The notes: generated by a model not told the origin, from the sequence alone. Positions 3,324 through 19,603 are shown, counted from the first letter of the stretch. The stretch: DNA of 24,000 nt from Arenicella sp. (GCA_047629535.1 JBLHXJ010000001.1:41975-65974), one strand, 5' to 3'. Translations and numbers: made by a program.

Positions 3324-4169
3324 ATGAAAACACCGAAAAGACTATTGCCGCTGATTGAAGACGGCTTGGTCGACGAAGTCCTTGGTCAACTGATGAGTGG
3401 CAAAGAAGCCACTGTGTATATGGTGCGCTGTGGCTCCGAGGTTCGTTGTGCCAAAGTGTATAAAGAAGCCGCACAGCGAAGCTTCAAAAAAGCAGTGCAA
3501 TACCAAGAAGGCCGTCGTGTGCGTAATAGCCGCCGCGGCCGGGCAATGGAAAAGGGCTCTAAGTTTGGACGCGATCAACAAGAAGAAATTTGGCAAAGTG
3601 CCGAGGTAGACGCCTTATATAAACTTGCCGCCGCTGGGGTGCGAGTGCCAGAGCCCTACGGTTGCTTCAACGGTGTGCTGTTAATGGAGTTAATTACCGA
3701 TGAAGAAGGCTACGTAGCACCGCGTCTAAACGACGTGGAACTAAGCCCAGAACGAGCGCGGCGTGACCATGCCGTGGTTATGCAAGACGTTATTAAAATG
3801 TTATGCGTTGGCCTAATTCATGGCGACTTATCTGAATTTAATGTGTTGGTTGATGAAGTTGGCCCGGTAATTATCGACCTGCCACAAGCCGTTAACGCGG
3901 CGGGTAATAACAATGCAAAAGCCATGCTCGAACGAGACGTGCGCAACATGACTAACTACTATGGCCAATTCGCACCTGAATTACTCGAGAGCGAACACGC
4001 AAAAGAAATTTGGAAGCTCTATGAAAAAGGCGACCTCAAAGCAGATACTAAGCTCACGGGCATTGTCGAAATAGATACTCGCCCAGCTAATGTCGACTCA
4101 GTAATGCTAGAAATCAAAGCGGCTTTCGAAGAACAGGAAGAGCGTTTGCAGCGATTGAGTGATGATTAG
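3324..4169 (+). CDS. RIO-type serine protein kinase/ATPase
   Basis: 281-aa ORF. It has the RIO ATP-loop motif SGKEATVY, the catalytic loop LIHGDLSEFNVL and the metal-binding IIDLPQAV. An AT-rich 124-bp upstream spacer precedes it. Confidence 0.85.
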   Translation: MKTPKRLLPLIEDGLVDEVLGQLMSGKEATVYMVRCGSEVRCAKVYKEAAQRSFKKAVQYQEGRRVRNSRRGRAMEKGSKFGRDQQEEIWQSAEVDALYKLAAAGVRVPEPYGCFNGVLLMELITDEEGYVAPRLNDVELSPERARRDHAVVMQDVIKMLCVGLIHGDLSEFNVLVDEVGPVIIDLPQAVNAAGNNNAKAMLERDVRNMTNYYGQFAPELLESEHAKEIWKLYEKGDLKADTKLTGIVEIDTRPANVDSVMLEIKAAFEEQEERLQRLSDD

Positions 4170-4183
4170 CTATAAGGCTTTGT

Positions 4184-5698
4184 TTATTTTATTGTTGATC
4201 TCTTTTCATCTGTCACCCCGATTTTGCTTCTAACAATCTCCGACTCTTGCGGGCTGAGCTCGACACTTGCATCGATTATTTTTTCAAAATGTGCTGTATC
4301 CCAAGTGTTTTCGCCACTTAAGCAATAAACATAGAGCTCGGGAAAATCTTCAATTGCCAGTTGGTCTTCGATAAAAAGCGTTTCAATTAATTTTGAATCT
4401 TCGCCTTTGCGTTTACTGTCGTAGGCCATGTTCACTGGCAGAGCGTCTTTACGACATAATACGCTGCCTTCCCATAGTCGAATATTTGAGCAATATACTT
4501 TGTTATTTTCTCGTCGGTGGATTAACCAACGAGGTAAAACTGAGGCGGCCTTATTCTGTTTTAAGGCTGATTCTAATTGCCTTGAAAGACGTGTCGGATG
4601 ATACCAATCATCGTCATCCCACTGGCAAACGAACCGGCCCTTGGCCATTTCGATCGAAAAATTGCGCAAATCACCTAGGCTTTTCTTTGCTTCGATCGGC
4701 ACAACGTGATGCCTTATTTCTTTATTATTAAGGCCCTTCAAGAACTTGTGTGTTGCCGTGTCATCAGATTCGCTAATCACGACCAGCTCTTTATGTGAAT
4801 AGCTTTGTGCCTGAAAACAATCAATAGCGCGCTCTAATAGTGCTACCCGGCCACGGGTCACGCACAAACAGGATATTAGCGGGGCTGGAGAGTTTGACGA
4901 CGACGGCTTGTCGGCCAATCTATATTTTGTTTGCTGGGCGTTAGTGGTGATGTCCTTTTGTGCAATCGAACGATAAAACGATGGTGGCCGTTCGTAATAC
5001 AGGGTTAACAGTGAGAGGTTGCGTATATAGCTCTGGGGATCAATGCCGTTAGGCTCACTTGACTGATGCCACAAATGGTAGGCAATGCCCTTAAGTGTTG
5101 CCATTTTGGTAGCAAAAAAGGCTACCCGCTTGGACATGGCGTCGTCTTCTGCACCCCAGCCTTCAAAGCGTTCATCCATACCGCCCGTCGCGTGGTAAAG
5201 TCTTCGTGTAAGGGCGAACGCTCCTCCGCAGAAGGGGGGGTATTGGCCTATCGACTGTCGGTTTGTCTGTTGCCTTGTTCTATTAATATGCAGCGATTGT
5301 GTCTGCGCTAAAAGCTGTTGTGATTCCTCCTGGCTTAGGTCAACTAAAACGTCATACGGATTGATCGCGTCTACATCGTTGTTCATTTGTTGGCAAATCT
5401 CATCTAACGCAGCTGCGCTAATGAGCATGTCTGAATCGGCGAATACCAGCCGCTCACAGCTTGCATAATTAGCGGCGATGTTCAGCCCCCAGGATTTATT
5501 GAAGCGCCCAGAATTCTCAACAAATACATACTTGATGTTAGCTTGCTGTTGGTTTTTAAATTGAGGGGTAGCGTCTTGCTCGACGAGAATTATCTCTAAG
5601 CTTCGGTCGAGGCTGAGCTGCTGTAAAAGGAAGTGTAAGTTATGTTGCCGACCTTGATCAGATTGGCGATAGGTTATTAGGTAAGAGAAGCGATACAT
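4184..5698 (-). CDS. Two-domain glycosyltransferase: N-terminal beta-1,4-galactosyltransferase-like (GT7/Glyco_transf_7C-like) + C-terminal GT2
   Basis: N-domain (aa 1-~215): ILVEQD, RFNKSWGLNIAANYA, FADSDM (DxD) and FCGGAFALTRRLYHATGGMDERFEGWGAEDDAMSKR, which parallels the beta4GalT FGGVSAL...WGWGGEDDD block. C-domain (aa ~270-504): ISCLCVTRGR, ELVVISESDD, LGDLRNFSIEMAKGRFVCQWDDDDWYHP (classic GT2). No TM segment is evident. Confidence 0.85.
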   Translation of the reverse strand: MYRFSYLITYRQSDQGRQHNLHFLLQQLSLDRSLEIILVEQDATPQFKNQQQANIKYVFVENSGRFNKSWGLNIAANYASCERLVFADSDMLISAAALDEICQQMNNDVDAINPYDVLVDLSQEESQQLLAQTQSLHINRTRQQTNRQSIGQYPPFCGGAFALTRRLYHATGGMDERFEGWGAEDDAMSKRVAFFATKMATLKGIAYHLWHQSSEPNGIDPQSYIRNLSLLTLYYERPPSFYRSIAQKDITTNAQQTKYRLADKPSSSNSPAPLISCLCVTRGRVALLERAIDCFQAQSYSHKELVVISESDDTATHKFLKGLNNKEIRHHVVPIEAKKSLGDLRNFSIEMAKGRFVCQWDDDDWYHPTRLSRQLESALKQNKAASVLPRWLIHRRENNKVYCSNIRLWEGSVLCRKDALPVNMAYDSKRKGEDSKLIETLFIEDQLAIEDFPELYVYCLSGENTWDTAHFEKIIDASVELSPQESEIVRSKIGVTDEKRSTIK

Positions 5699-5855: not shown

Positions 5856-6512
5856 ATGAAACAAGCGCCATCTCCACAAGTATTGATTGGCACGCCTGCT
5901 TACAATGGCATGCTGCATACAGACTATCTGCATTCGATTCTTGGTTTTGTAAAAAATGACATCCCGCATGCGGTGATGACCATTGGTAATGAGAGTTTGA
6001 TCACTCGGGCCAGGAATACAATTTTGGCCAGTTTCTGGGAGGCCGACACGTTTACCCATCTACTTTTCCTTGATGCTGATGTGTTTCTTGACCATCAGGG
6101 CCTTAGCCAAATGCTTAGCCATAATAAAGATGTTGTTGGCGCGCCAGTTTATCTGAAAGGCAAGAACGCAGACGGCGAACAAACCGCAAATACAGATGCC
6201 AAACTGAATGTTCTGCCGGTGCTTCAATCAGTAACTAGAGTTGGCACCGCAGCACTGCTGCTATCACGTTCGGCGGTTAATTCTTTGGTCGCCCACGCAA
6301 TCAAGCAAGATCGGACCTACAGCATAAATAAGATGCTTCGACATGAAGGGATGGCAACCACCCACTACGATGTGTTCAGAGTGGGTATCTCTAATGACGA
6401 GTATTTATCAGAAGATTTTTGGCTTTGCAAAGAATTGCGAGAGCTGGGTCACGAAATTCACGTCGACACCTCGGTATACACTCGCCATAACGGTATGGTC
6501 TGCTTCGACTAG
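5856..6512 (+). CDS. Small putative GT-A fold glycosyltransferase
   Basis: 218-aa ORF. VLIGTPAYNG opens a Rossmann-like strand. It also has SLITRARNTILASF and HLLFLDADVFL (DxD). I cannot assign a CAZy family by eye. It is divergent from the 4184-5698 gene across a 157-bp spacer. Confidence 0.65.
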   Translation: MKQAPSPQVLIGTPAYNGMLHTDYLHSILGFVKNDIPHAVMTIGNESLITRARNTILASFWEADTFTHLLFLDADVFLDHQGLSQMLSHNKDVVGAPVYLKGKNADGEQTANTDAKLNVLPVLQSVTRVGTAALLLSRSAVNSLVAHAIKQDRTYSINKMLRHEGMATTHYDVFRVGISNDEYLSEDFWLCKELRELGHEIHVDTSVYTRHNGMVCFD

Positions 6513-6634: not shown

Positions 6635-7486
6635 TTATGCCCAGCTAGACTTCGACAAGCTGAAATTAAACGCAACGTTTGAATTTGCTGGCATAGGCGT
6701 GGTTGGCATAGGCGTTGTTGGCATAGACGTGGTTGGCATAGACGTGGTTGGCATAGACGTAGACGTGGTAGTCGGTACGCCTGTAGTCGTTGGTGCAACA
6801 GTAGTCGTTGGTGCGCCTGTAGTCGTTGGTGCAACAGTAGTCGTTGGTGCCGCAGTGGTGGTTGCCACCGGCGCGCAAACTGGATCAGACGAAGAGACAG
6901 TAAATGCTCCAGTTTCACCTAAGCCACTAATGGAACCCGTAGCCGAAGTTGGCACAGTCGCGCTGTTAAGCGTTGCCGTCACTGTAAAGCCAGAGTGCAA
7001 ACCCACAACGCTTACTGCGGTGCCGTTAACAGAGCCTTTTTGAACATCAACTTCATTATTATTTAGAGTCAATGAAACGGTTGCAACGCCGGCTTCAAGT
7101 GTGAGCAGTACGCAACCGCCATTTAATACTGTAATGGGCGCTTCTTCGGCATATGCCTGACCAATGAAAATATCCAGAATATCGTTAACATCAACGCCGT
7201 CATTTTCAGCCTTGGATATCGATATGCCGCCGCCGCCGCCCATTACTACAACAGCAGCACTGGTTTGTGCATGGCTTGGAAGTATTACCGCGTCAAGTAA
7301 TGGCTTTTTCCATTTATCAGGGACTAAGCTAGTTGAAATAACCGCGCCGCCGCCAATTAAGGTATTTCTTAATACTGTACGTCTAGCATTCTTCTGCTCT
7401 ACACCAACAGCTAGCTCTTGTTGCTCAGCTGATTTAGACGAAGGTGTCGCTTCGCTACTCAATGAATCATTTGTATCTTTAGGCAT
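6635..7486 (-). CDS. Exported protein with twin-arginine-like signal and C-terminal Thr/Pro-rich mucin-like repeat tail
   Basis: The ORF is open to TTG 7549, but the first ATG is at 7486 (MPKDTND...), and using it removes the overlap with the divergent gene. ARRTVLRNTLIGGGAVISTSLV is followed by LPSHA|Q, a possible signal-peptidase site. A central region of about 130 aa is rich in Gly/Val/Thr and carries 2 Cys. The tail is APVATTTAAPTTTVAPTTTGAPTTTVAPTTTGVPTTTSTSMPTTSMPTTSMPTTPMPTTPMP (62 aa, 27 Thr), followed by ANSNVAFNFSLSKSSWA. Confidence 0.75.
   Translation of the reverse strand: MPKDTNDSLSSEATPSSKSAEQQELAVGVEQKNARRTVLRNTLIGGGAVISTSLVPDKWKKPLLDAVILPSHAQTSAAVVVMGGGGGISISKAENDGVDVNDILDIFIGQAYAEEAPITVLNGGCVLLTLEAGVATVSLTLNNNEVDVQKGSVNGTAVSVVGLHSGFTVTATLNSATVPTSATGSISGLGETGAFTVSSSDPVCAPVATTTAAPTTTVAPTTTGAPTTTVAPTTTGVPTTTSTSMPTTSMPTTSMPTTPMPTTPMPANSNVAFNFSLSKSSWA
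6689..6874 (-). repeat. In-frame coding tandem repeats (15-bp x5 and 36-bp x2) encoding the PT-rich tract
   Basis: The 15-bp units are at 6690-6704, 6705-6719, 6720-6734, 6735-6749 and 6750-6764 (ggcata[g/a][g/a]cgt[g/t]gtt; units 3 and 4 are identical). They encode MPTT(S/P). The 36-bp units at 6780-6815 and 6816-6851 match at 35 of 36 positions and encode (APTTTV/APTTTG). Confidence 0.95.
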
Positions 7487-7524: not shown

Positions 7525-7570
7525 AACCCGAATAATAATTGGCTGCCAAGGGCTATAGGTTAACTTCTAG

Positions 7571-7591
7571 GCTACTCTTTGCTAGAGTAGC
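7571..7591. promoter_or_regulatory. Perfect 8-bp inverted repeat (operator or 5'-UTR hairpin candidate)
   Basis: gctactct (7571-7578), ttgct, agagtagc (7584-7591). It lies in the 133-bp divergent spacer between the PT-protein gene and the GT32-FkbM gene, 29 nt upstream of ATG 7620. Confidence 0.3.
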
Positions 7592-7619
7592 GGGAATATC
7601 CCTCCAGCACCGATTGATT

Positions 7620-9437
7620 ATGATTCCTAAAATTATCCACCAAACTTGGAAAACCGATCAGGTTCCAGAGCAGTGGAAGGCATTTGCCCAGTCATGGAAA
7701 TCGCATCACCCCGATTGGGAGTATCGGCTGTGGAGCAACGCTGATGGCGCTGAGTTTGTCGAACATTTCTATCCTCATTTCGAACAGACATATTGGTCCT
7801 ATCGATACGATATACAGCGCGCTGATGCGATTCGCTACCTAATAATTTATCATTATGGTGGTATCTATGCCGACCTTGATTTTGAATGCCTGCAATCATT
7901 TGAGAGCCTACGTGACAATCACAAGCTGGTTATCGGCTTTGAGCCTAAGGAGCATGCGCAGGCTCAATCATTGCAAGAAGTGTTATGCAATGCGTTATTC
8001 GCGTCAAAGCCTCGGTCAAAATTTTTAAAAGCCGTTATTGATTTTTTAATAGCGGACGACACTCCGACGATTGGACTTGGGGATGTATTGAGAACCTCTG
8101 GCCCAGTGATGTTGCAGAATGTGTATGAGCAATTTAATAAAAGTGACGTAGATGCTCATCCGCCGGTCCGCTTTTACCCGTTTGAAAATAATGCCCCAGA
8201 ATTAACCCAGCTAGCCAAAAATTCGGATGAAAGTGAACGCATAAGGCAAAAACTGATAGGTTTGGGTTGTTTTGCGGTGCACCACTGGGCAAATTCATGG
8301 ACCAAAGATTTGGCCGGTGAACTGATGAATCCGAGCGCCGATTCAGTTGAGGGGTTTGATTTTTATCCGATGTATGATTCACCTGGGATGGATTTATTTA
8401 ACGGTGGTAGAGAGGTCGCAGCACTTGCAGAACGATGCAGAGCTGATTCTCAGGTAGTAGCGTTCAATACCGATGGCTTTGCAAAGCACACTATCGCCTC
8501 AATATCTGATTTGAGCGTAATGTTAAACGCGAATCAAAATGAAGGGATATATATAAAAAGACCCATCGCTAACGCTAAAGAGGTTTTAGAGCAGCACGAG
8601 AATATGCAACTGGTCTATATTGCCGCTGCTGGCCCTCGGCCATTTAGTCTGTTTGTCGATCAAACCAACGATCTAGTAATTGCTCAGTTTATTGAGAGTA
8701 ACCGCATTTGGGAGCCGCTTGAAACCGCCTTAGTCAGCAAGTTAGTATCCCCAGGCGAAAACGTAATCGACATAGGAGCCAACATTGGCTATTTCACGGT
8801 ACTTTTTTCGCAACTAGTGGGCGAACAAGGCAAAGTGCTGGCGTTCGAACCGGAAGCAAAAAATTACTCTTTATTAAAGGCCAATATATTAATTAATCGC
8901 TTAGATAATGTGGTTATTGAAAATCAAGCGCTGTCCAATACTCAGGGAGTCGCTGATCTATACTTATCTAGTTACAATAAAGGTGATCATCGACTTGGCT
9001 ACACCGCCGGCCGAGAGAAGCAACAAATTAGCAGTATTGAGCTTGACCAATACCTGTCAGGCAACGCCCTGCCGATTCATTTTATTAAATCCGATACCCA
9101 AGGTCATGAGCTTAAAGTGCTGCAGGGTATGACCAAGTTAATTGAGCGAAATAGTGCATACTTATGCTGCTTGCTGGAATTCTCTCCAGGGTTATTGATC
9201 ACTGCAGAACCTAGAGGCGTTGAAGATTTTATCGATTTCTTTGACTTATTCGAGACCGAAATATATTTGATTCAGGAGGTGGCTCGGAACGCCGAATTAG
9301 TATTAATGGATAGCGCCGCATTGCGGCAACTGGCGCGCATAATGTTGCAGCACGAAGCGCAAGACCATTCCGTCAATACTTTAATTTTTTTTAGCACTAA
9401 CGCTCGAATCAAGTATTTCGCTAAAATGGGTTGGTGA
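7620..9437 (+). CDS. Fusion protein: GT32-type glycosyltransferase (Gly_transf_sug, DXD) - unassigned ~70-aa module - FkbM-family methyltransferase
   Basis: The ORF-track start at 7539 is a TTG. ATG 7620 gives MIPKIIHQTWKT, the canonical GT32 N-terminus. RADAIRYLIIYHYGGIYADLDFECL carries the DXD. The FkbM region (nt ~8616-9398) has VIDIGANIGYFTV, LAFEPEAKNYSLLKANI and IHFIKSDTQGHELKVLQGM. Its stop overlaps the next gene. Confidence 0.85.
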   Translation: MIPKIIHQTWKTDQVPEQWKAFAQSWKSHHPDWEYRLWSNADGAEFVEHFYPHFEQTYWSYRYDIQRADAIRYLIIYHYGGIYADLDFECLQSFESLRDNHKLVIGFEPKEHAQAQSLQEVLCNALFASKPRSKFLKAVIDFLIADDTPTIGLGDVLRTSGPVMLQNVYEQFNKSDVDAHPPVRFYPFENNAPELTQLAKNSDESERIRQKLIGLGCFAVHHWANSWTKDLAGELMNPSADSVEGFDFYPMYDSPGMDLFNGGREVAALAERCRADSQVVAFNTDGFAKHTIASISDLSVMLNANQNEGIYIKRPIANAKEVLEQHENMQLVYIAAAGPRPFSLFVDQTNDLVIAQFIESNRIWEPLETALVSKLVSPGENVIDIGANIGYFTVLFSQLVGEQGKVLAFEPEAKNYSLLKANILINRLDNVVIENQALSNTQGVADLYLSSYNKGDHRLGYTAGREKQQISSIELDQYLSGNALPIHFIKSDTQGHELKVLQGMTKLIERNSAYLCCLLEFSPGLLITAEPRGVEDFIDFFDLFETEIYLIQEVARNAELVLMDSAALRQLARIMLQHEAQDHSVNTLIFFSTNARIKYFAKMGW

Positions 9438-12400
9438 GTATCAACGGTATAAAATACTATTCCATGCTTGAGTCATCCGGCTATGGACTGTCTGCGATTA
9501 GCTATTTGAATGCGTTGCTTGACCTCGAGTGCCCAATACATTGGATTCCACTGGTCTTGGGCGAGCGAGGTTACCAACCATGGTATCAATCGACATCGGC
9601 CGAGCAGCAAGTTCGCCAATTGCTGATCGAGTGTCTGACTGACGACAGTCAAATAGACAGACTGATGGCGTGTCTAGAGCCGATTAACAACTATCAATGC
9701 ATATTCATGCATACCGTGCCGGAGTATTGGCCTCATCTTAAAGAGCCCAATAAATATCAAATCGGCTATAGCGTGTGGGAGACTAGTTGCCTACCTAAGC
9801 ATTTTCCTGAGCTCATCAATCAGCTTGACCGAGTGCTAGTACCCAGCACATTTAATCGACCGATATACGAGCGTTCGGGGGTTGAGATTCCGATAGACGT
9901 GGTGCCGCATATTCTAAATAAGCCCGCGCCTGCGGCTAAGGCGACCGTCGATACTATGCGTAGCTTGATTGAGGTTGCGCCAGAAAACTACCTCTTCTAT
10001 TGCATCAATGAATGGACCGCTCGCAAGGCGCTATGGGTTTTGGTTGACGCCTATCTAAGCAGCTTTAGTGCTGATGACTCGGTGTCTTTAGTACTAAAAA
10101 CATCGGCTCGAGGCCCGCGATCGGAAACCGATGCAGACCAGTACGACACACAACTATTGGTGGCACAAATAGCTGCTGGCTATACTGCACCTGCGCATAT
10201 TAAAGTGATTAATCATAAAATCACTAACCCTGAGATCACCGCATTACACCAACTTGGCGATTGCTTTGTCTCTACCAGTCGTAGCGAAGGCTGGGGCTTG
10301 GGTATGTTTGAAGCTGCGGGAATGGGTAACCCGGTGATTGCTACCGGCTGGGGCGGGCATCTCGATTTTCTTACAGAGCAGTCGAGCTATCTGTCATCCT
10401 ATCAATTGACTCAAGTGGTGGATACTCAAGCTGAATCGTCCTACAGTAGCGAACAACAGTGGGCTCAAGTTGATCAAACAAGTATCTCTAAGCATTTAAA
10501 AACGGTGTTCGCCAATCCTCAATTAGCGCAGCAAAACGCTCAAGATTTGGCTCTAGAGCTAAATGAAAAGTATAATTCAGCACAGCTTGGTATACAGCTC
10601 TATAAAGCAATTATGGCAACTAACATCCCCAAGATTTTTCATTTTATATTCGGTTTGAAAGAACAAACTGAGCCGTTTCATCTGGCCTACTATCTTTGTT
10701 TAAAATCCTGCCTCGAGGTTAACAAGCCGAGCGCGCTACATTTTTACTATCATTACCAACCTTATGGTGAATACTGGGAGTTGATAAAACCTCACCTGAC
10801 GCTAATCGAAGTAGAGTTGGAATCTTTTGTAAAACACAATAACGCCTACCAAGATCACCAAGAAGGTCAGTTTATCAAGGCCGCTAAACTCGATTATGCG
10901 CATCAAGCGGATTTTATCCGCTTAAAAAAATTGATAGAATACGGTGGTGTTTATGCTGACATGGACACCCTATTTGTAAACCCAATACCGGATGATCTGT
11001 ATCAGCATCCGTTTGTGATAGGCCGTGAACAGAGTGTTATCGACCCCGTAAGCAAGAAAAAAAATCCGTCATTGTGCAACGCGCTGCTGATGTCCGAACC
11101 CAATTCAGAGTTCGCGCGCCAATGGCTAAAGGCTAGTTATCAATCGTTTGACGGAACCTGGAGTTCGCACTCGTGCCAGTTAGCGGCGACACTTGCAAGC
11201 GAGTTGCCCGATACGGTGCACATTGCGCCGCAACGTTTCTTCTTCAAGCACATGTGGACAAAGCCGGGTATTAGCTCGTTATTTGAAGAGCTTGATGATG
11301 ACTTCGAGCAAGTCTATAGCATGCATATGTGGAACCATCTGTGGTGGGACCAATCGAGAGTAGACTTTTCGAGTTTTCATCAAGGCTTGATCACCGAACA
11401 AAATATTATGACGGTAGATACCACTTATAATGTTATCGCCAGACAATTTTTACCAACAGCAAGTAAGGCAACAACTAGCCCAATTAACAAAGAGCCCTCT
11501 GAAAAATTGAAAAATTCATCCTCATCAATCTTGATTCCAGTAATAGAAGTTAGTTGGGAACTTTCTCAAGAGCAAGGTTCCAGCCGCTTTTCCAATACTC
11601 AAACGGGCCATTCCTTCGCCACTAACGAAACTACAAATTTAATTCTTCAACAGTGCGATGGAATTAAAAATGTTGACGCTATCATTGATTCGCTGAGTGA
11701 GCGCTTTGGTGATGATTTCGACAGTATAGGGCATGATGTTAAAACTACTTTGCGCGAACTAGCTTTGAGTGGCGCGATTCGATTTAAACAAATCACACCG
11801 GCTCTACCAGTTGTTCAGCCCACGCCGCCCGAGGCACCCTCAAAGCAGTACAAGTTGTGTATTGGCATGGCCACCTACGATGACTATGACGGTGTCTACT
11901 TTTCGGTGCAGGCGATGCGAATGTATCACCCAGAAATATTGGAGCATGTAGAGTTTTTAGTGCTCGACAACAACCCCACAGGCGTTTGCGCCGACGCGCT
12001 AAAAAACCTTGGTGATTGGATCCCAAACTATCGTTATATTGAAGGCGATAATTTCCAAGGAACCTGGTCTCGATTTTCCTTGATTAACCAAACTAACGCT
12101 CCGTATATTTTGTGTATGGATTCGCACGTGATGGTTTTACCCGGAGCGATTAAGCAACTGTTGGATTATATCGACATTCACCCCGACACACCCGACATGC
12201 TGCAAGGGCCACTAGTGGCCGATGATTTGTTTTCCTTGTCATCGCATTTTACGCCCGGCTGGGGTAGTGGCATGTATGGCAAATGGGCAACAGATTCAAG
12301 AGCGGAAGATCTCGACAACCCTGGGTTTGATATCCCAATGCAAGGGCTTGGTTTGTTTGCCTTTCGCAAAGATAGCTGGCCGCAAGTAAACTCACGCTTT

Positions 12401-13309
12401 AAAGGGTTTGGCGGCGAAGAGGGCTATGTGCATGAGAAAGTTCGGCGTGCCGGTGGGCGAACATTATGTCTACCATTTTTACGCTGGGTACACCGCTTTA
12501 ACCGACCGATGGGCACGCGCTATGCGCTCAGTTGGCATGATCGCATTCGCAACTATATGGTCGCGCATGACGAACTGGATGTTGATAATAGCGAGATGAT
12601 TGAACACTTCAATTCGTTTATAGGCGAGGCCGAAACCGCAACAATAGTTGCCGATGTTGAAGCTGAAATTAACAATCCATTCTACTTTTTTGATGCTATT
12701 TACTGTATCAACTTAGATCGACAAGAAGAACGATGGAAGACCGCACAGGCACAATTCGATAAGCTTGGCATTACCCATCGAGTTCAGCGTTTTTCCGCTA
12801 TTGAAACACCCGAAAATCACCATATAGGGTGTGCCTTGTCACACCGAGCAATTATTCAAATGGCATCGGTCAATAAGCACAAAAATGTATTGGTGTTAGA
12901 AGATGATGTGATCTTCGATGCGGCCACACTGACTGATCTTGCAAATAGCCTGGATGAGGCAAAAGCCGAAAGCTGGGATGTATTATATTTAGGTGGACAT
13001 TGTTGGGACAAGCGATATCCACTTGTAAGTGGGCGTGAACATTTAAGAGAACTGGTCAGTGGCGAAGTTGGGCCAACCACAACCCATGCGATTGTCTATG
13101 GCGATTCCAGTTATTCGCAACTGCTTAATGATCTTCCCGAGACTATCGCGCAGATGACAAGCGCCATTGATCAAGGGTGGTTAGCGATTGATCAGTATTT
13201 GGCCGTTGAGACAACGCTAAGAAAGCTGATAACCGAACCTAGAGTGGCAAGTCAGCCACCGCTTCTTATCCAAGAAGAAGATAGCTTTACACCGATACTT
13301 TCGGCATAG
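9431..13309 (+). CDS. 1292-aa multi-domain glycosyltransferase: GT4 - GT32 - PqqD-like - DxH GT-A (GT2/GT27-like) - GT25
   Basis: The start is TTG 9431 or GTG 9434, overlapping the upstream TGA (9435-9437). ATG 9464 would delete the first beta-strand IKYYS. GT4 (aa 1-~392): EX7E in SRSEGWGLGMFEAAGMGNPVIATGWGG (nt 10286-10312). GT32 (aa ~397-672): IPKIFHFIFG and ADFIRLKKLIEYGGVYADMDTLF. PqqD-like: aa ~704-786. GT-A (aa ~806-1045): FLVLDNNP, CMDSHV (nt 12119-12127), GFGGEEGY and WVHRF. GT25 (aa ~1085-1280): AIYCINLDRQEERW, GCALSHRA and VLVLEDDVIF. No TM segment is evident. Confidence 0.85.
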   Translation: MVSINGIKYYSMLESSGYGLSAISYLNALLDLECPIHWIPLVLGERGYQPWYQSTSAEQQVRQLLIECLTDDSQIDRLMACLEPINNYQCIFMHTVPEYWPHLKEPNKYQIGYSVWETSCLPKHFPELINQLDRVLVPSTFNRPIYERSGVEIPIDVVPHILNKPAPAAKATVDTMRSLIEVAPENYLFYCINEWTARKALWVLVDAYLSSFSADDSVSLVLKTSARGPRSETDADQYDTQLLVAQIAAGYTAPAHIKVINHKITNPEITALHQLGDCFVSTSRSEGWGLGMFEAAGMGNPVIATGWGGHLDFLTEQSSYLSSYQLTQVVDTQAESSYSSEQQWAQVDQTSISKHLKTVFANPQLAQQNAQDLALELNEKYNSAQLGIQLYKAIMATNIPKIFHFIFGLKEQTEPFHLAYYLCLKSCLEVNKPSALHFYYHYQPYGEYWELIKPHLTLIEVELESFVKHNNAYQDHQEGQFIKAAKLDYAHQADFIRLKKLIEYGGVYADMDTLFVNPIPDDLYQHPFVIGREQSVIDPVSKKKNPSLCNALLMSEPNSEFARQWLKASYQSFDGTWSSHSCQLAATLASELPDTVHIAPQRFFFKHMWTKPGISSLFEELDDDFEQVYSMHMWNHLWWDQSRVDFSSFHQGLITEQNIMTVDTTYNVIARQFLPTASKATTSPINKEPSEKLKNSSSSILIPVIEVSWELSQEQGSSRFSNTQTGHSFATNETTNLILQQCDGIKNVDAIIDSLSERFGDDFDSIGHDVKTTLRELALSGAIRFKQITPALPVVQPTPPEAPSKQYKLCIGMATYDDYDGVYFSVQAMRMYHPEILEHVEFLVLDNNPTGVCADALKNLGDWIPNYRYIEGDNFQGTWSRFSLINQTNAPYILCMDSHVMVLPGAIKQLLDYIDIHPDTPDMLQGPLVADDLFSLSSHFTPGWGSGMYGKWATDSRAEDLDNPGFDIPMQGLGLFAFRKDSWPQVNSRFKGFGGEEGYVHEKVRRAGGRTLCLPFLRWVHRFNRPMGTRYALSWHDRIRNYMVAHDELDVDNSEMIEHFNSFIGEAETATIVADVEAEINNPFYFFDAIYCINLDRQEERWKTAQAQFDKLGITHRVQRFSAIETPENHHIGCALSHRAIIQMASVNKHKNVLVLEDDVIFDAATLTDLANSLDEAKAESWDVLYLGGHCWDKRYPLVSGREHLRELVSGEVGPTTTHAIVYGDSSYSQLLNDLPETIAQMTSAIDQGWLAIDQYLAVETTLRKLITEPRVASQPPLLIQEEDSFTPILSA
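11540..11788 (+). other. PqqD-like (RiPP-recognition-element-like) domain embedded in the mega-glycosyltransferase
   Basis: EVSWELSQEQGSSRFSNTQTGHSFATNETTNLILQQCDGIKNVDAIIDSLSERFGDDFDSIGHDVKTTLRELALSGAIRF follows the PqqD-family pattern (x-LNetaaxIwxlxDGxxtvxeIvxxLxxxy...DVxxfLxxLxxxGli). It is flanked by Ser/Thr/Pro-rich linkers. Confidence 0.6.
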
Positions 13310-17044: not shown

Positions 17045-19603
17045 ATGATGAATAACGCCTCTGACTCAGTTCAACAAGCGCTAAAAATAGCCGAAGCCTC
17101 CGATCACAACACCATGCTGTTAGTGCTCGGAATCACTGGCCTACTTGCCTTAGCGGTGCTGGTTGTGCCATTAGCGGCCAGGCTTAAAATTCCCTTTACA
17201 GTCATGCTGGCGGCGGTTGGTGTACTCATCGGTCTGGGCTCAGAAATTATTTTGCTCGCGCCTGGACTTGGGTTTTTACATGAATTTATACAGGCACTCA
17301 ATTCTTTAGAGATCACCTCGGATGCGGTGTTCTTTGTGTTTTTGCCGGCGCTGGTATTTGAATCTGCATTAGCCATCGATGTGCGTCGCCTGTTCGACGA
17401 TATATCGCCAATTCTGATGTTGGCAATTGTTGGCCTATTGATTTCAACAGCGGTGGTTGGTTTCACCATGTCCTATATAACCCATGTTCCCTTGCTGGTG
17501 TGCTTGTTATTGGGGGCGATTGTGTCGGCAACTGACCCGGTCGCGGTAGTTGCTATTTTTAAAGACTTAGGAGCTCCGCAGCGCTTAGCAATTCTGGTAG
17601 AAGGCGAAAGCTTATTTAATGATGCTACTGCGATTGTGGTGTTCACCATTATCTCCGCTATGCTACTAGGCCAATCTGACCCGACCTTGCTTAGTGGCAT
17701 TGCCTCTTTTGTTAAAGTATTTTTTGGCGGCATTATCGTCGGCTACTTAACGGCTCGACTGATCTGCTTTTTGCTAGTGCACATTGGCGACTCCAATTTG
17801 CCGAAAATCACACTGACCATTTCTCTCGCTTACTTATCTTTCATAATCGCCGAGCATAGCCTTCATGTGTCGGGCGTTATGGCGGTGGTGACGGCGGCCT
17901 TGGTGCTCGGCTCACGCGGGCGCAGTGTGATTACTCAGAGTGCCTGGCACGGGCTCGAGGAAGTCTGGGAGCAGATCGGCTTTGTGGCTAATTCGGTGAT
18001 TTTTATTCTGGTTGGTTTAAAAGTGCCGTCGATTATGGCGGCCATGGACAGTCAACAATTTATCTGGCTAGCGGCGTTACTACTGGCTGGGTTTACTGCG
18101 CGCTTTGCGATTATCTTTGGTTTGGTACCGGTGATGAGCAAGTTTGGTTGGTCAGCGCCAGTGAGTACTGGCTACCGAGCTGTGATGTTCTGGGGTGGTC
18201 TGCGCGGCGCGGTGTCTCTGGCATTGGCATTAGCGGTTATCGAAAATGATGCTTTTGCGCCGGAAATCCAGGAATTTCTGGGCGTCATGGTGACCGGTTT
18301 CGTGCTCTTCACCTTAGCCATTAACGCCACCACCGTGCCACTTGTAATGCGCGCCTTTGGCCTTGCCAAACTCGGCCCTGCCGATGTTGCGATTCGTGAT
18401 CGAGCGTTTTCAAAAGCCATGGTTAATGTAAGCGAGCGAGTGAAAGGAACCTCGCGCGCCTTACACATTGGCGAAGAGCGAACCAATCAGGTGGTAAAAC
18501 CCTATGAGCAACTAATTCAAGCGAGTTCAAACAAAGTCGCCAGTAATAATCTAAGTGAAGATGACTGGCTGTTGATCGGCTTACGCATGATCTGCATGAA
18601 CGAAAATAAAGCCTATGCAAAGATGTTGGATCAAGGTGAGGTTTCGCCTGATACCGCGCGTAGTCTTTTCCGCCAAGCCGCTGACCTCAGTGATAGCATC
18701 AAGCATCGCGGGCTAGATGCTTATCTAGATGATTATCGCCGCAAACTCGGTTTTCACTGGCATACCAAGTTAGCAATGAAGGTACAACGGTCTTTTGGGT
18801 ATACCCGTTTGTTGGCAAATAATTTGGCCAACCGCTTTCAGGTTCTGGAGGCCGAGTGCACCGTATTACATGAACTAAAGGGCAATGTTGCTACACAACT
18901 CACCGATATGATCGGTTCTGAGGCAACCGTCAAACTGCAACAGATATTGGCTCGTCGTGACCTTGAAACAGAGCAAGCTTTAGAAGTACTTCGAGTTTGC
19001 TATCCGGAGTACGCCAAAGCACTCGAGAAAAGAGCATTGCAACAAACCGCCATGCGCTTGGAAGAGAACCAATATAAGGAAATGATGGCGAGTTCGCTGA
19101 TCAACAAAGAAGTTGCCAGCGAATTAAAAGAGGGTATGAGCGAGCGCTATCAAGAACTCCAACAAAAACTGAGCCTCGATTTGGGACTGGATGCTAAAGC
19201 GCTGGTTGCTAAAATGAATTTCTTTAAGAACTTAGATCAAAGCGCCCAGAACGATATTGCTAAATTGCTTAAACCTCGATTAGCGCTGCCGGGCGAGGTT
19301 ATTTTTGAAAAAGGAGGTCCGCCAGATGCTATGTATTTTATTTCCTCCGGCGCAAGCAGAGTTGTATTGGACCAGCACACCGTCATTATTGGTAGCGGTG
19401 ATTGTTTCGGAGAGATGGCCTTGCTGCAACAAAAGCCGCGTATTGCCAGTGTTATTTCTGATGGTTTTAGTGAGCTTTTGGTACTGCATACCAAGGACTT
19501 TAATCAGATGCTCAATAAGGATCATGCATTGCGGGAGCAGATAGAAAAAATCGCTCAGCAACGAACTATAGAGAATCAAAGCGGCCTTCCAGCTAAGCTG
19601 TAG
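17045..19603 (+). CDS. CPA1-family (NhaP-type) Na+(K+)/H+ antiporter fused to a long helical linker and a C-terminal cyclic-nucleotide-binding domain
   Basis: The exchanger core (aa ~20-440) has VSATDPVAV, ESLFNDATAIV and WGGLRGAVSLALAL. A mostly helical region of about 270 aa follows. The CNBD (nt ~19214-19530) has LPGEVIFEKGGPPDAMYFISSG and FGEMALLQQKPRIASVIS. Confidence 0.9.
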   Translation: MMNNASDSVQQALKIAEASDHNTMLLVLGITGLLALAVLVVPLAARLKIPFTVMLAAVGVLIGLGSEIILLAPGLGFLHEFIQALNSLEITSDAVFFVFLPALVFESALAIDVRRLFDDISPILMLAIVGLLISTAVVGFTMSYITHVPLLVCLLLGAIVSATDPVAVVAIFKDLGAPQRLAILVEGESLFNDATAIVVFTIISAMLLGQSDPTLLSGIASFVKVFFGGIIVGYLTARLICFLLVHIGDSNLPKITLTISLAYLSFIIAEHSLHVSGVMAVVTAALVLGSRGRSVITQSAWHGLEEVWEQIGFVANSVIFILVGLKVPSIMAAMDSQQFIWLAALLLAGFTARFAIIFGLVPVMSKFGWSAPVSTGYRAVMFWGGLRGAVSLALALAVIENDAFAPEIQEFLGVMVTGFVLFTLAINATTVPLVMRAFGLAKLGPADVAIRDRAFSKAMVNVSERVKGTSRALHIGEERTNQVVKPYEQLIQASSNKVASNNLSEDDWLLIGLRMICMNENKAYAKMLDQGEVSPDTARSLFRQAADLSDSIKHRGLDAYLDDYRRKLGFHWHTKLAMKVQRSFGYTRLLANNLANRFQVLEAECTVLHELKGNVATQLTDMIGSEATVKLQQILARRDLETEQALEVLRVCYPEYAKALEKRALQQTAMRLEENQYKEMMASSLINKEVASELKEGMSERYQELQQKLSLDLGLDAKALVAKMNFFKNLDQSAQNDIAKLLKPRLALPGEVIFEKGGPPDAMYFISSGASRVVLDQHTVIIGSGDCFGEMALLQQKPRIASVISDGFSELLVLHTKDFNQMLNKDHALREQIEKIAQQRTIENQSGLPAKL

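What the first reader, a model, noticed from the sequence alone, without database searches (positions are those of the whole stretch)
11540..11788. PqqD/RRE-like peptide-recognition module embedded inside a glycosyltransferase
An ~80-aa segment matches the PqqD-family pattern (..TNETTNLILQQCDGIKNVDAIIDSLSERFGDDFDSIGHDVKTTLRELALSGAIRF). Established knowledge: PqqD-like domains are the RiPP recognition elements that bind precursor peptides and present them to modifying enzymes such as radical SAM enzymes, cyclodehydratases and lasso-peptide enzymes. Finding one inside a GT chain, directly before a DxH GT-A domain and beside a PT-repeat gene, suggests protein-substrate docking rather than polysaccharide synthesis. 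Candidate docking sites are the long Ser/Thr/acidic N-terminal region of the PT protein (MPKDTNDSLSSEATPSSKSAEQQELAVGVEQKN) and its non-repeat C-terminal 17 residues.
Basis: partly seen in the sequence, partly recalled or inferred. Interest (0 to 1): 0.78.

Follow-up and report, generated by a model that had tools for sequence, protein, structure and literature searches.

The report
Peptide-docking domain in a protein-glycosylating megaenzyme
A genuine peptide-recognition (PqqD/RRE) domain sits inside a four-domain sugar-transferring enzyme, and related loci suggest it targets the enzyme to a conserved leader on a neighbouring threonine-rich secreted protein, a leader-guided protein glycosylation system I could not find described.

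Summary
Window 11522-11800 (aa 698-790 of ORF 9431-13309) is a real PqqD-type RiPP recognition element. Pfam scores it 33.3 bits (cut-off 23.4). The AlphaFold2 model (pLDDT 86) best matches the lasso-peptide leader binders TbiB1/TfuB1 and PqqD.

The domain lies between a GT4-GT32 half and a GT2-GT25 half. The GT2-GT25 half resembles two protein O-glycosyltransferases, human COLGALT1 and mucin-type ppGalNAc-transferases.

Eighty-two non-redundant related loci were compared:
- GT2-GT25 is always fused.
- A PqqD domain is present in 46 loci. It is fused to the GT, free-standing, fused to other glycan-tailoring enzymes, or fused to the substrate.
- A Thr-rich ORF or a class-1 leader lies nearby in 44 loci.
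- Thirty loci share a 40-residue leader (RRxxLKxIxxGxG...LPxKWxKPvIxxVxLPAHA) followed by a variable Thr/Pro-rich body. The window's PT protein is one of them.

Best reading (inferred, no binding data): the domain docks the enzyme on this twin-arginine leader, the Thr-rich tract is O-glycosylated in the cytoplasm, and the product is then exported.

Its proposed docking sites are not: the N-terminal 33 residues are the least conserved part, and the C-terminal tail is clade-specific.

The parts
11522..11800 (+). PqqD-type RiPP recognition element (RRE), aa 698-790 of the megaenzyme. This is the finding itself.
   Evidence: Pfam PF05402 33.3 bits, above cut-off. Own family HMM 94 bits, envelope 698-790. 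AF2 pLDDT 86, b-b-b-b-a-a-a-b. Foldseek top hits TbiB1, TfuB1 and PqqD. Family profile against PDB hits PqqD 3g2b at E 3.4e-8.
9431..13309 (+). Cytoplasmic four-glycosyltransferase megaenzyme, 1292 aa from the TTG start. The database copy P0001 is 1281 aa, so the real start is probably M12 at 9464.
   Evidence: ORF. Pfam domains GT4, Gly_transf_sug, PqqD, Glycos_transf_2 and Glyco_transf_25. 100% identical to an Arenicella sp. MAG protein.
9464..10630 (+). GT4 (GT-B) domain, aa ~12-400.
   Evidence: PF20706, PF00534 and PF13692 hits at aa 245-382. Absent from the shorter orthologs P0007-P0009.
10631..11410 (+). GT32-like domain (Gly_transf_sug / Caps_synth, DxD), aa ~401-660.
   Evidence: PF04488 38.3 bits at aa 465-524, PF05704 at aa 482-569. 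Most conserved domain among orthologs, 84-90% identity.
11846..12667 (+). GT2 GT-A domain, ppGalNAc-T-like, with invariant 'MATYDDYDG' and 'CMDSHV' (D897-x-H899), aa 806-1079.
   Evidence: PF00535. Own HMM 497 bits. Invariant columns. Foldseek hits to GalNAc-T2, T3, T4, T10 and T12 at E ~1e-10. 2998 relatives at 45-60% identity.
12713..13264 (+). GT25 domain, aa 1095-1278. Always fused behind the GT2 domain in this family.
   Evidence: PF01755 40.2 bits. Own HMM 183 bits. GT2+GT25 together match human COLGALT1 over ~570 columns, E 6e-17.
6635..7486 (-). Thr/Pro-rich secreted protein (283 aa from ATG 7486), the presumed glycosylation substrate.
   Evidence: ORF. Start set by homologs. Member of a family next to GT2-GT25 genes in 24 loci by clustering, and 30 non-redundant loci by leader HMM. 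No Pfam or NCBIfam family.
7268..7384 (-). Conserved twin-arginine leader RRTVLRNTLIGGGAVISTSLVPDKWKKPLLDAVILPSHA (aa 35-73). Best candidate RRE docking site and probable export signal with an AxA cleavage site.
   Evidence: Leader alignment. HMM 90 bits. Mean pairwise identity 49%, against 17% upstream and 25% downstream. RR-to-AHA length fixed at 37-41 aa. R35 and R36 are the only invariant columns across all substrate classes.
6686..6865 (-). Thr/Pro-rich tract (aa 208-267; APTTT and MPTTS repeats). The 80 residues from C204 to the C-terminus hold 27 Thr. Presumed O-glycosylation acceptor.
   Evidence: Sequence. Composition. DNA tandem repeats with periods of 15, 18 and 36. Tract length varies among orthologs.
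7539..9437 (+). GT32 + FkbM methyltransferase (the real start is probably 'MIPKIIHQTW' at 7620). Presumed glycan extension and methylation.
   Evidence: PF04488 79 bits, PF05050 62 bits, TIGR01444 102 bits. Conserved in the five-gene module.
5856..6512 (+). 218-aa small GT-A-like protein, part of the conserved module.
   Evidence: Weak PF13506 and PF03452 hits. Cluster 6, present in 8 loci. Present in L001 and L003.
4184..5698 (-). Double GT2 protein (504 aa), with a Glyco_transf_7C-like region. Part of the conserved module.
   Evidence: PF00535 twice, PF10111, PF02709. Cluster 3, present in 12 loci.

Best explanation
SHOWN:
- Window 11522-11800 encodes a genuine PqqD-type RiPP recognition element (RRE).
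- It sits at the seam of two modules that also exist as separate proteins elsewhere: GT4-GT32-(RRE) and (RRE)-GT2-GT25.
- The GT2-GT25 half looks like protein O-glycosyltransferases (COLGALT1, ppGalNAc-T).
- The gene belongs to a five-gene module that keeps together in loci with different flanks. The module holds a double GT2, a small GT, a Thr/Pro-rich protein, GT32-FkbM and the megaenzyme.
- The Thr/Pro-rich protein belongs to a family with a conserved 40-residue twin-arginine leader and a variable Thr-rich body. This family accompanies GT2-GT25 enzymes and PqqD domains in several phyla.

INFERRED:
- The RRE binds the leader of the Thr/Pro-rich protein (RRTVLRNTLIGGGAVISTSLVPDKWKKPLLDAVILPSHA). 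The likely mode is the usual RRE one, with a leader strand ('KPLLDAVILP') added to the edge of the beta-sheet.
- This holds the unfolded Thr-rich tract next to the catalytic domains in the cytoplasm.
- The ppGalNAc-T-like GT2 domain starts O-glycosylation on Thr.
- GT25, GT32, GT4, the other GT genes and the FkbM methyltransferase extend and methylate the glycan.
- The finished glycoprotein is exported, most plausibly by the Tat pathway, which accepts bulky cargo. The leader is cut after AHA.

In relatives the same logic is spread over several enzymes, each with its own RRE.
For: RRE identity.

Architecture:
- RRE-GT2-GT25 exists as a stand-alone protein of 520-606 aa (P0071-P0094, 46-66% identity over the whole query). 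A permuted GT2-GT25-RRE also exists (P0138).
- GT4-GT32-RRE ends at the RRE in P0010.

Protein-GT resemblance: Foldseek gives COLGALT1 at E 6e-17 and GalNAc-T2/T3/T4/T10/T12 at E ~1e-10. D-S-H is invariant.

Module conservation: window, L001 and L003 have different flanks.

Substrate family:
- 26 members in 24 loci by clustering.
- The leader HMM hits 32 loci, 30 of them non-redundant.
- Short precursors of 75-140 aa have the poly-Thr core directly after AHA.
- The leader is 49% identical on average, against 17% and 25% for its flanks.

Association: RRE against class-1 leader gives 25/21/5/31, p 1.8e-4. RRE against leader-or-Thr-rich ORF gives p 0.0014 in loci of 12 kb or more.

Independent fusions: PqqD is fused to GT2_4, GT2, GT32, PIG-L deacetylase, LicD and sulfotransferase in these loci. 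L050 has four RRE-bearing enzymes around one precursor gene.

Tat-like character: the RRxxLK motif is present. TIGR01409 hits 9 of 24 substrates, best E 1.8e-4. The h-region is moderately hydrophobic, mean 1.75.

No polysaccharide export or priming genes are in the window, and there is no defence-system signal.
Against: - No binding or glycosylation data exist.
- RRE and leader distances do not co-vary once the close Arenicella clade is collapsed (partial r 0.01, p 0.46).
- Among orthologs the RRE is only 60-69% identical. The catalytic domains are 80-90%, and a neighbouring linker is 54-62%.
- The window's own protein does not hit TAT_signal profiles. The RR-to-AHA distance of 40 aa is long for a Tat signal.
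- Twenty-one RRE-containing loci lack a class-1 leader.
- In some phyla the PqqD domain is fused to the substrate itself, which a simple 'enzyme-borne RRE binds leader' model does not explain.
- In bufferins, the closest precedent of RiPP precursors with export signal peptides, the signal peptide was dispensable for modification (PMC11626156).
Confidence: 0.6

Rival explanations
1. The RRE does recruit the neighbouring Thr/Pro-rich protein, but it binds the mature part (the globular domain or the Thr-rich tract) rather than the twin-arginine leader. The leader would be only an export signal.
For: In bufferins, removing the whole signal peptide did not prevent modification by the MNIO/RRE-partner pair (PMC11626156). 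No RRE-leader co-variation outside one clade. Loci with RRE and Thr-rich ORFs but other leader types exist.
Against: The mature parts are not conserved across the family. The body ranges from about 27 to about 210 aa, with or without a folded domain. The leader is the only shared block. Known RREs bind short conserved linear motifs, as in the TbiB1-leader complexes that are the best structural matches.
Confidence: 0.15
2. The PqqD domain is an inter-enzyme adaptor or activator. It binds another pathway protein (for example the GT32-FkbM or double-GT2 enzyme, or the catalytic domain next to it) rather than the substrate. The role would be to assemble the multi-enzyme complex or to switch on catalysis.
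For: RREs are known to contact and potentiate their partner enzymes (stated in PMC12710340). The domain sits exactly at the seam between two enzyme modules. PqqD fused in cis to the substrate could be read as a handle for the enzymes.
Against: Several different enzymes of one locus each carry their own RRE (L050). This fits a common ligand, the precursor, better than pairwise enzyme contacts. The fold is closest to leader-bound B1 proteins.
Confidence: 0.12
3. The domain is an evolutionary relic or passive spacer. The cluster makes a cell-surface polysaccharide or LPS decoration, as the database name 'glycosyltransferase involved in cell wall biosynthesis' implies. The PT protein would be an unrelated neighbour.
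For: Source annotations. RRE conservation is modest. GT25 and GT32 families are commonly annotated as LPS or capsule enzymes.
Against: PqqD recurs with this GT family in at least 46 of 82 loci in many arrangements. Thr-rich or leader ORFs are adjacent in 44 of 82. The AF2 model is confident and canonical. The window has no flippase, polymerase, ABC exporter, priming transferase or sugar-nucleotide genes. The closest folds are protein glycosyltransferases.
Confidence: 0.05

Closest known systems
Discrete and fused RREs of RiPP pathways (PqqD; lasso-peptide B1 proteins TbiB1/TfuB1; LynD/TruD; PbtF)
   Same: Same fold and detectable sequence homology. Fused or adjacent to modifying enzymes. Accompanied by a precursor with a conserved leader and a variable core.
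   Different: The partner enzymes are glycosyltransferases. In this window the presumed ligand belongs to a 283-aa secreted protein with a folded domain, not a short peptide. The leader looks like a twin-arginine export signal.
RRE-glycosyltransferase (PF00535) fusions listed by RRE-Finder (PMC7470986, 2020; PMC12710340, 2025)
   Same: Same domain combination. Those papers note it as a fusion not present in known RiPP classes.
   Different: Those papers only catalogue the fusion. They describe no substrate, leader motif, Thr-rich core, GT2-GT25 didomain or export signal. I could not check whether their examples are this family.
Mucin-type O-glycosylation by polypeptide GalNAc-transferases (GT27)
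   Same: GT-A fold similarity at E ~1e-10. D-x-H metal motif (established for GT27; here 'DSH' is invariant). Thr/Pro-rich tandem-repeat acceptors.
   Different: There is no ricin-type lectin domain. A PqqD domain occupies the targeting role. The enzyme is bacterial and cytoplasmic. Sequence identity is only 15-19%. The donor sugar is unknown.
Human COLGALT1/GLT25D1 (collagen hydroxylysine galactosyltransferase)
   Same: Best structural match. It has the same two-domain layout of an N-terminal GT-A domain followed by a GT25 domain, and it acts on a protein.
   Different: 14-16% identity. The overall TM-score is low (0.25) because the domain orientation differs. The acceptor there is hydroxylysine in collagen, and there is no RRE.
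Bufferins (MNIO + DUF2063-RRE partner; precursors with Sec signal peptides; PMC11626156)
   Same: Unusually long RiPP precursors, or small proteins, carrying an export signal peptide. They are modified in the cytoplasm by an RRE-containing machinery and then exported by a general pathway.
   Different: The chemistry is Cys to thiooxazole, not glycosylation. The signal is Sec, not twin-arginine-like. The signal peptide was dispensable for modification there.
Serine-rich repeat adhesins with GtfA/GtfB and the accessory Sec system; Tat signal-binding chaperones (TorD/DmsD). Both from own knowledge.
   Same: Cytoplasmic O-glycosylation of a repeat-rich protein before export, with a special signal peptide. 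A dedicated cytoplasmic protein binds a twin-arginine leader until maturation is complete.
   Different: The glycosyltransferase families are different, there is no RRE, and the export route is different. TorD-type chaperones have an unrelated all-helical fold.
TIGRFAMs 'HPr-rel-A system' (HprK-related kinase A TIGR04352 + PqqD_rel_X TIGR04353)
   Same: In many related loci the GT2-GT25 enzyme carries an N-terminal HprK_rel_A-like domain (E 7e-30). These loci also have a discrete PqqD ORF and an NTP_transf_5 gene.
   Different: The window's locus has no kinase or nucleotidyltransferase. Scores are below the equivalog cut-offs. To my knowledge that system is defined only by gene neighbourhood and has no known function.

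Membership tests
PqqD / RiPP recognition element (PF05402) | Sequence match to the family profile above the curated threshold | tested here: met
   33.3 bits against cut-off 23.4. The family profile hits PqqD 3g2b at E 3.4e-8. NCBIfam equivalog subfamilies (PQQ, lasso, GeoRSP) all fall below their cut-offs, so it belongs to none of those specific systems.
PqqD / RiPP recognition element (PF05402) | Winged helix-turn-helix fold with a three-stranded sheet followed by three helices | tested here: met
   AF2 pLDDT 86.3, E-E-E-E-H-H-H-E. Foldseek TM on target 0.79-0.84 and rmsd 1.8-2.2 A to TbiB1 and TfuB1.
PqqD / RiPP recognition element (PF05402) | Fused or adjacent to a post-translational modification enzyme, with a nearby precursor that has a conserved leader | tested here: met
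   Fused to four GT domains. The leader family is conserved across loci. Co-occurrence p 1.8e-4.
PqqD / RiPP recognition element (PF05402) | Physical binding of the leader peptide | not testable with these tools
FP, ITC or AF-Multimer is needed.
RiPP biosynthetic gene cluster | Short gene-encoded precursor (typically under 150 aa) with leader and core | tested here: not met
   The window's substrate is 283 aa, with a ~130-aa probably folded domain between leader and Thr-rich tract. Relatives of 75-140 aa do meet the criterion.
RiPP biosynthetic gene cluster | Leader more conserved than core | tested here: met
   49% against 25% (core) and 17% (N-terminal region) mean pairwise identity.
RiPP biosynthetic gene cluster | Dedicated leader protease and/or exporter | tested here: not met
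   None in the window. An AxA (AHA) motif suggests the general signal peptidase instead.
Twin-arginine (Tat) signal peptide | Z-R-R-x-hydrophobic-hydrophobic motif, weakly hydrophobic h-region, AxA site | tested here: met
   The window has A-R-R-T-V-L and the family has RRxALK. Maximum 13-aa hydropathy is 1.2-2.5. AHA is present. The RR-to-AHA distance (40 aa) and the n-region are unusually long.
Twin-arginine (Tat) signal peptide | Match to TAT_signal profiles (PF10518 / TIGR01409) | tested here: inconclusive
   The window protein has no hit at E<=10. Nine of 24 family members hit TIGR01409 (best E 1.8e-4) and six hit formate_TAT.
Twin-arginine (Tat) signal peptide | Tat-dependent export | not testable with these tools
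   Needs RR-to-KK mutants, a tatC mutant or reporter fusions.
GT27-like polypeptide O-glycosyltransferase | GT-A fold with a D-x-H metal motif | tested here: met
   Foldseek E ~1e-10 to several GalNAc-Ts. Invariant D897-S-H899. That these residues superpose on the GT27 DxH is inferred, not checked residue by residue.
GT27-like polypeptide O-glycosylltransferase | C-terminal ricin-type lectin domain | tested here: not met
   No such domain in Pfam. A GT25 domain follows instead.
GT27-like polypeptide O-glycosyltransferase | Transfers GalNAc to Ser/Thr of a polypeptide | not testable with these tools
   Only the genomic association with Thr-rich ORFs bears on this.
Polysaccharide / LPS biosynthesis locus (the database annotation) | Flippase/polymerase or ABC exporter, priming polyprenyl-phosphate transferase, sugar-nucleotide genes nearby | tested here: not met
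   The flanking genes are cytochrome c peroxidase, adenylate cyclase, RIO kinase, DUF3429, SnoaL, GDYXXLXY/DUF2157 and a Na/H exchanger.
TIGRFAMs HPr-rel-A system | HprK-related kinase A together with its PqqD partner | tested here: not met
   No kinase domain in the window proteins. It is present in relatives such as L062.

The most novel reading that the evidence does not exclude
The window shows one variant of a widespread, undescribed maturation system, present in Gammaproteobacteria, Desulfobacterota, Acidobacteriota, Alphaproteobacteria, Planctomycetota and Actinomycetota.

In this system Thr-rich peptides and proteins carry a twin-arginine leader. A ppGalNAc-T-like GT2-GT25 enzyme and a changing set of tailoring enzymes give them mucin-type O-glycans in the cytoplasm. 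The tailoring enzymes include GT32, GT4, a deacetylase, LicD, a sulfotransferase, a kinase and a methyltransferase. Every enzyme is recruited through a PqqD-type RRE.

The RRE binds the export signal itself. It therefore also acts as a Tat 'proofreading' chaperone that holds the cargo back until glycosylation is finished. This would be RiPP logic applied to protein glycosylation, and the first bacterial glycoprotein route through Tat.
Probability: 0.3. Interest if true: 0.9.

Novelty: new variant of a known kind. Interest (0 to 1): 0.74.

Why it matters
RREs are known as the adaptors that let RiPP enzymes find short precursor peptides. Bacterial protein O-glycosylation is known to use sequons, oligosaccharyltransferases or dedicated GtfA/B-type enzymes. 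A leader-guided, RRE-dependent route to heavily O-glycosylated Thr-rich proteins would join these two fields.

It would explain a large family of 'hypothetical' GT2-GT25 enzymes (about 3000 relatives in the protein search). It would give a sequence rule (RR...LPxKWxKPvIxxVxLPAHA plus a Thr-rich tract) for finding their substrates.

It would also raise a testable question: can the Tat pathway export cytoplasmically glycosylated cargo? A portable leader that directs multi-step glycosylation would be useful for glyco-engineering.

Culturable carriers exist for experiments: Oricola indica JL-62 and Desulforhopalus singaporensis DSM 12130.

Tried and rejected
No complex model was obtained.
- Mantel and partial Mantel tests of RRE against leader distances, controlling for GT2: significant with all 25 pairs (partial r 0.25, p 0.001). 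The signal vanishes when the close Arenicella clade is collapsed (partial r 0.01, p 0.46). This gives no independent co-evolution support.
- phmmer of the 110-aa RRE alone against 1.84 billion representatives gave only 19 hits and was little help for the domain's origin.
- phmmer of RRE+GT2 against PDB sequences gave no hit. Only the family profile found PqqD and TbiB1.
- The GT2 domain has no sequence-level solved relative better than E 0.036.
- NCBIfam equivalog PqqD models (PQQ, lasso, GeoRSP, SynChlorMet, HPr-rel-A) are all below cut-off, so the domain is not assigned to any named RiPP system.
- A defence or conflict-system reading, prompted by the PF20706 'GT4-conflict' hit, was rejected. 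PADLOC finds nothing for the megaenzyme.
- No tRNA or Rfam features are in the window.
- Literature searches for RRE/PqqD with O-glycosylation, twin-arginine, threonine-rich or HPr-kinase terms found no description of this system. The library lacks most subscription journals.
Full report
**Observation.** The finding lies in ORF 9431..13309 (+), 1292 aa. Coordinates 11540-11788 are aa 704-786, and the quoted peptide is there.

Pfam finds five domains in the protein:
- GT4 (aa ~245-382)
- Gly_transf_sug/GT32 (465-524)
- PqqD PF05402 (723-781; 33.3 bits, cut-off 23.4, E 6.3e-8; 37.4 bits when the segment is scanned alone)
- Glycos_transf_2 (813-919)
- Glyco_transf_25 (1131-1178)

NCBIfam's PqqD subfamily models hit below their cut-offs. 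The domain therefore belongs to the superfamily but to none of the named RiPP systems. A profile of 31 family members matches solved PqqD (3g2b) end to end at E 3.4e-8, and also matches TbiB1 and TfuB1.

AlphaFold2 of aa 695-800 gives pLDDT 86.3 and the order b-b-b-b-a-a-a-b. Foldseek against the PDB returns leader-bound lasso B1 proteins first (5v1u/5v1v/6jx3; TM on target 0.79-0.84, rmsd about 2 A). PqqD, TruD, the PbtF RRE, ThcOx and CteB follow.

**Source and gene neighbourhood.** The protein is 100% identical to one from an Arenicella sp. MAG, annotated 'glycosyltransferase involved in cell wall biosynthesis'. One ortholog is annotated 'PqqD family peptide modification chaperone'.

The surrounding genes are:
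- a double GT2 (4184-5698, minus strand)
- a 218-aa GT-like protein (5856-6512, plus)
- the Thr/Pro-rich protein (6635-7486, minus)
- GT32-FkbM methyltransferase (7539-9437, plus)
- the megaenzyme

These five genes stay together in loci L001 and L003, whose flanks are otherwise different. The window holds no flippase, polymerase, exporter, priming transferase or sugar-nucleotide gene. It has no tRNA or Rfam feature and no defence-system signal.

**The enzyme half behind the RRE.** A search with aa 700-1075 returned 2998 proteins. The GT2 domain is 45-60% identical across phyla.

RRE-GT2(-GT25) exists as stand-alone proteins of 520-606 aa (P0071-P0094). A permuted GT2-GT25-RRE also exists (P0138). 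P0010 is GT4-GT32-RRE and ends at the RRE. The RRE therefore sits at the seam of two modules.

AF2 of aa 680-1292 (pLDDT 81.6) matches human COLGALT1 best. COLGALT1 is a GT-A plus GT25 protein that galactosylates collagen (E 6e-17, about 570 columns). Next come many mucin-type polypeptide GalNAc-transferases (E ~1e-10). The family has an invariant D-S-H (aa 897-899). D-x-H is the metal motif of GT27 enzymes (established knowledge). The residue-level equivalence is inferred.

**Comparative genomics.** A scan of one genome per species returned 80 loci. I built HMMs for the RRE, GT2 and GT25 parts from alignment A2.
- Every locus has GT2 and GT25 fused.
- A PqqD domain occurs in 52 of 87 loci, or 46 of 82 after removing duplicates.
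- The PqqD domain is fused to the GT at the N-terminus, internally or at the C-terminus. It also occurs as a 90-110-aa ORF, or fused to other neighbours.
- Those neighbours are glycan-tailoring enzymes: GT2_4, GT2, GT32, PIG-L deacetylase, LicD, and sulfotransferase+GT2 with two RREs.
- Locus L050 has four RRE-bearing enzymes around one precursor gene.
- Many ~800-aa members carry an N-terminal HprK-related kinase A-like domain (E 7e-30). Nineteen loci have an NTP_transf_5 gene. This links part of the family to the uncharacterised TIGRFAMs 'HPr-rel-A system'.

**The substrate family.** Clustering all neighbouring ORFs gave, as the second largest cluster, the family of the window's PT protein: 26 members in 24 loci.

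The members share an N-terminal block, RRxxLKxIxxGxGxxxxxxxLPxKWxKPvIxxVxLPAHAxTS, followed by very different bodies rich in Thr/Ser/Pro. An HMM of this block finds ORFs in 32 loci. Some are only 75-140 aa long, with the poly-Thr core starting right after AHA. Examples are Oricola indica L062 and L044, L061, L067, L037 and L023.

Conservation figures:
- Mean pairwise identity is 49% for the RR..AHA 40-mer.
- It is 25% for the next 60 residues.
- It is 17% for the 25 residues before RR.
- The RR-to-AHA length is fixed at 37-41 aa.

A conserved leader with a variable core is the hallmark of RRE-dependent precursors.

Other substrate classes exist.
- Bryobacterales have a short 'PDRRRFVQxILxMAGFAVP' leader plus a poly-Thr core, with a discrete PqqD ORF next to it.
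- In Acidobacteriota, Actinomycetota and Fraserbacteria a PqqD domain is fused in cis to 'SRRxxL...' and the Thr-rich tract.
- Across all 24 aligned substrates the only invariant columns are the two arginines.

Association statistics: RRE and class-1 leader co-occur (25/21/5/31, Fisher p 1.8e-4). RRE and 'leader or Thr-rich ORF within 3 kb' co-occur with p 0.007 for all loci and p 0.0014 for loci of 12 kb or more. These are lower bounds, because many contigs are short and my RRE HMM misses some cis-fused domains.

**Export signal.** The leader fits the Tat consensus (Z-RR-x-hydrophobic-hydrophobic; here ARRTVL). It has a weakly hydrophobic Gly-rich h-region (mean maximum hydropathy 1.75) and an AxA site.

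TIGR01409 hits 9 of 24 substrates (best E 1.8e-4), but not the window's own protein. The 20-residue block LPxKWxKPvIxxVxLP is extra relative to an ordinary Tat signal. It is my preferred candidate for the RRE recognition sequence.

The enzymes have no signal peptides, so modification must happen before export. Tat, which carries folded or bulky cargo, is a natural route. This step is inferred.

**Mechanism proposed.** The RRE docks the megaenzyme on the leader of the PT protein. The ppGalNAc-T-like GT2 domain initiates O-glycosylation of the Thr-rich tract (the 80 residues from C204 to the C-terminus hold 27 Thr). GT25, GT32, GT4, the two other GT genes and FkbM extend and methylate the glycan. 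Export and cleavage after AHA follow.

The shown parts are domain identity, architecture, module conservation, the leader/core pattern and the co-occurrence. The inferred parts are binding, the acceptor, the order of steps and the Tat route. Confidence is 0.6.

**Evidence against and caveats.**
- No complex model could be made.
- RRE-leader co-variation disappears once the close Arenicella clade is collapsed.
- Among orthologs the RRE is 60-69% identical. The GT domains are 80-90%, and a neighbouring linker is 54-62%.
- Twenty-one RRE loci have no class-1 leader.
- The cis-fused PqqD-substrate class is not explained by the simple model.
- In bufferins, RiPP precursors with Sec signal peptides and an RRE-containing partner, the signal peptide was dispensable for modification (PMC11626156).

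The protein-docking idea is supported. The specific docking sites are not. The N-terminal Ser/Thr/acidic 33 residues are the least conserved region. The C-terminal tail is restricted to the Arenicella-type clade.

**Comparison with what is known.** RRE-glycosyltransferase (PF00535) fusions are listed by RRE-Finder in 2020 and 2025 as fusions not found in known RiPP classes. Neither paper describes a substrate or function (PMC7470986, PMC12710340). Searches of the held library found no paper joining PqqD/RRE with O-glycosylation, twin-arginine leaders or Thr-rich precursors. Subscription journals are largely missing from that library.

The domain is a new member of the RRE family. The system is a new variant that combines RiPP-type leader recognition with mucin-type protein O-glycosylation and a Tat-like leader.

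Noticed in passing
window 6638-6685 (minus strand); L001, L003, L007, L009, L010: Arenicella-type PT proteins end in a conserved non-repeat tail, N(S/A)N(V/I/M)xFNFSLSKSxW(A/S). It is absent from all other family members. It could be a clade-specific sorting or anchoring signal.
   Followed up: partly
L032 4345-5969 (three tandem paralogs), L043 4018-5013, L064 1778-2716, L066 6040-6522, L072 2144-3118, L056 9614-10507: In Acidobacteriota, Actinomycetota and Fraserbacteria the Thr-rich protein itself begins with a PqqD-like domain, followed by an 'SRRxxL..G..A' segment and the poly-Thr tract. The RRE is thus fused in cis to its presumed ligand.
   Followed up: partly
L027 6169-6357, L028 2832-3038, L085 7705-7884: Giant sulfur bacteria (Parabeggiatoa, Thiomargarita) have ~55-aa ORFs with the motif RREAMKKLGKYGAYTAPAVITLLASRKVPA next to RRE-GT2-GT25 genes. 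This may be a further precursor class. L027 carries four PqqD domains.
   Followed up: no
L004 9922-11373 (minus strand): In a sponge-symbiont (Poriferihabitaceae) locus, RRE-GT2-GT25 lies next to a 483-aa protein with a CSFGCSHC (CX3CX2C, radical-SAM-like) motif. No Thr-rich ORF was found there.
   Followed up: no
proteins P0192 (2023 aa), P0193 (1065 aa), P0206 (1006 aa): Large proteins with 6-10 separate stretches matching the window's PqqD domain, i.e. tandem arrays of RRE-like domains.
   Followed up: no
L062 (Oricola indica JL-62), L079 (Desulforhopalus singaporensis DSM 12130), L083 (Hoeflea sp.), L086 (Streptomyces gamaensis): Cultured or named organisms carry GT2-GT25 relatives. Oricola has a minimal set: a 108-aa PqqD, a 75-aa leader plus poly-Thr precursor, HprK-GT2-GT25 and NTP_transf_5. 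This set is suitable for experiments.
   Followed up: partly
window 7539-7620 and 9431-9464: The mechanical TTG starts are probably too early. The GT32-FkbM protein most likely starts at 'MIPKIIHQTW' (7620), as in relatives. The megaenzyme most likely starts at M12 (9464), as in database copy P0001 (1281 aa). This leaves a ~130-bp divergent intergenic region between the PT gene and the GT32-FkbM gene.
   Followed up: partly
L007 and L010 (record titles): Loci 67-77% identical to the Arenicella locus over the whole module are labelled Polaribacter sp. and Cryomorphaceae (Bacteroidota) MAGs. This points to mis-binning or recent horizontal transfer.
   Followed up: no
window 1064-3199, 3324-4169, 17045-19603: The unrelated flanks are rich in signalling genes: a DAHL-GAF-adenylate/guanylate cyclase, a RIO-type kinase, and a Na+/H+ exchanger fused to a cyclic-nucleotide-binding domain.
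   Followed up: no
window 6689-6850: The Thr/Pro tract is encoded by near-perfect DNA tandem repeats (period 15 x 4.8 copies, period 18/36 x 3.8/2.1 copies; 88-97% matches). The tract length differs among orthologs, which suggests repeat expansion and contraction.
   Followed up: partly
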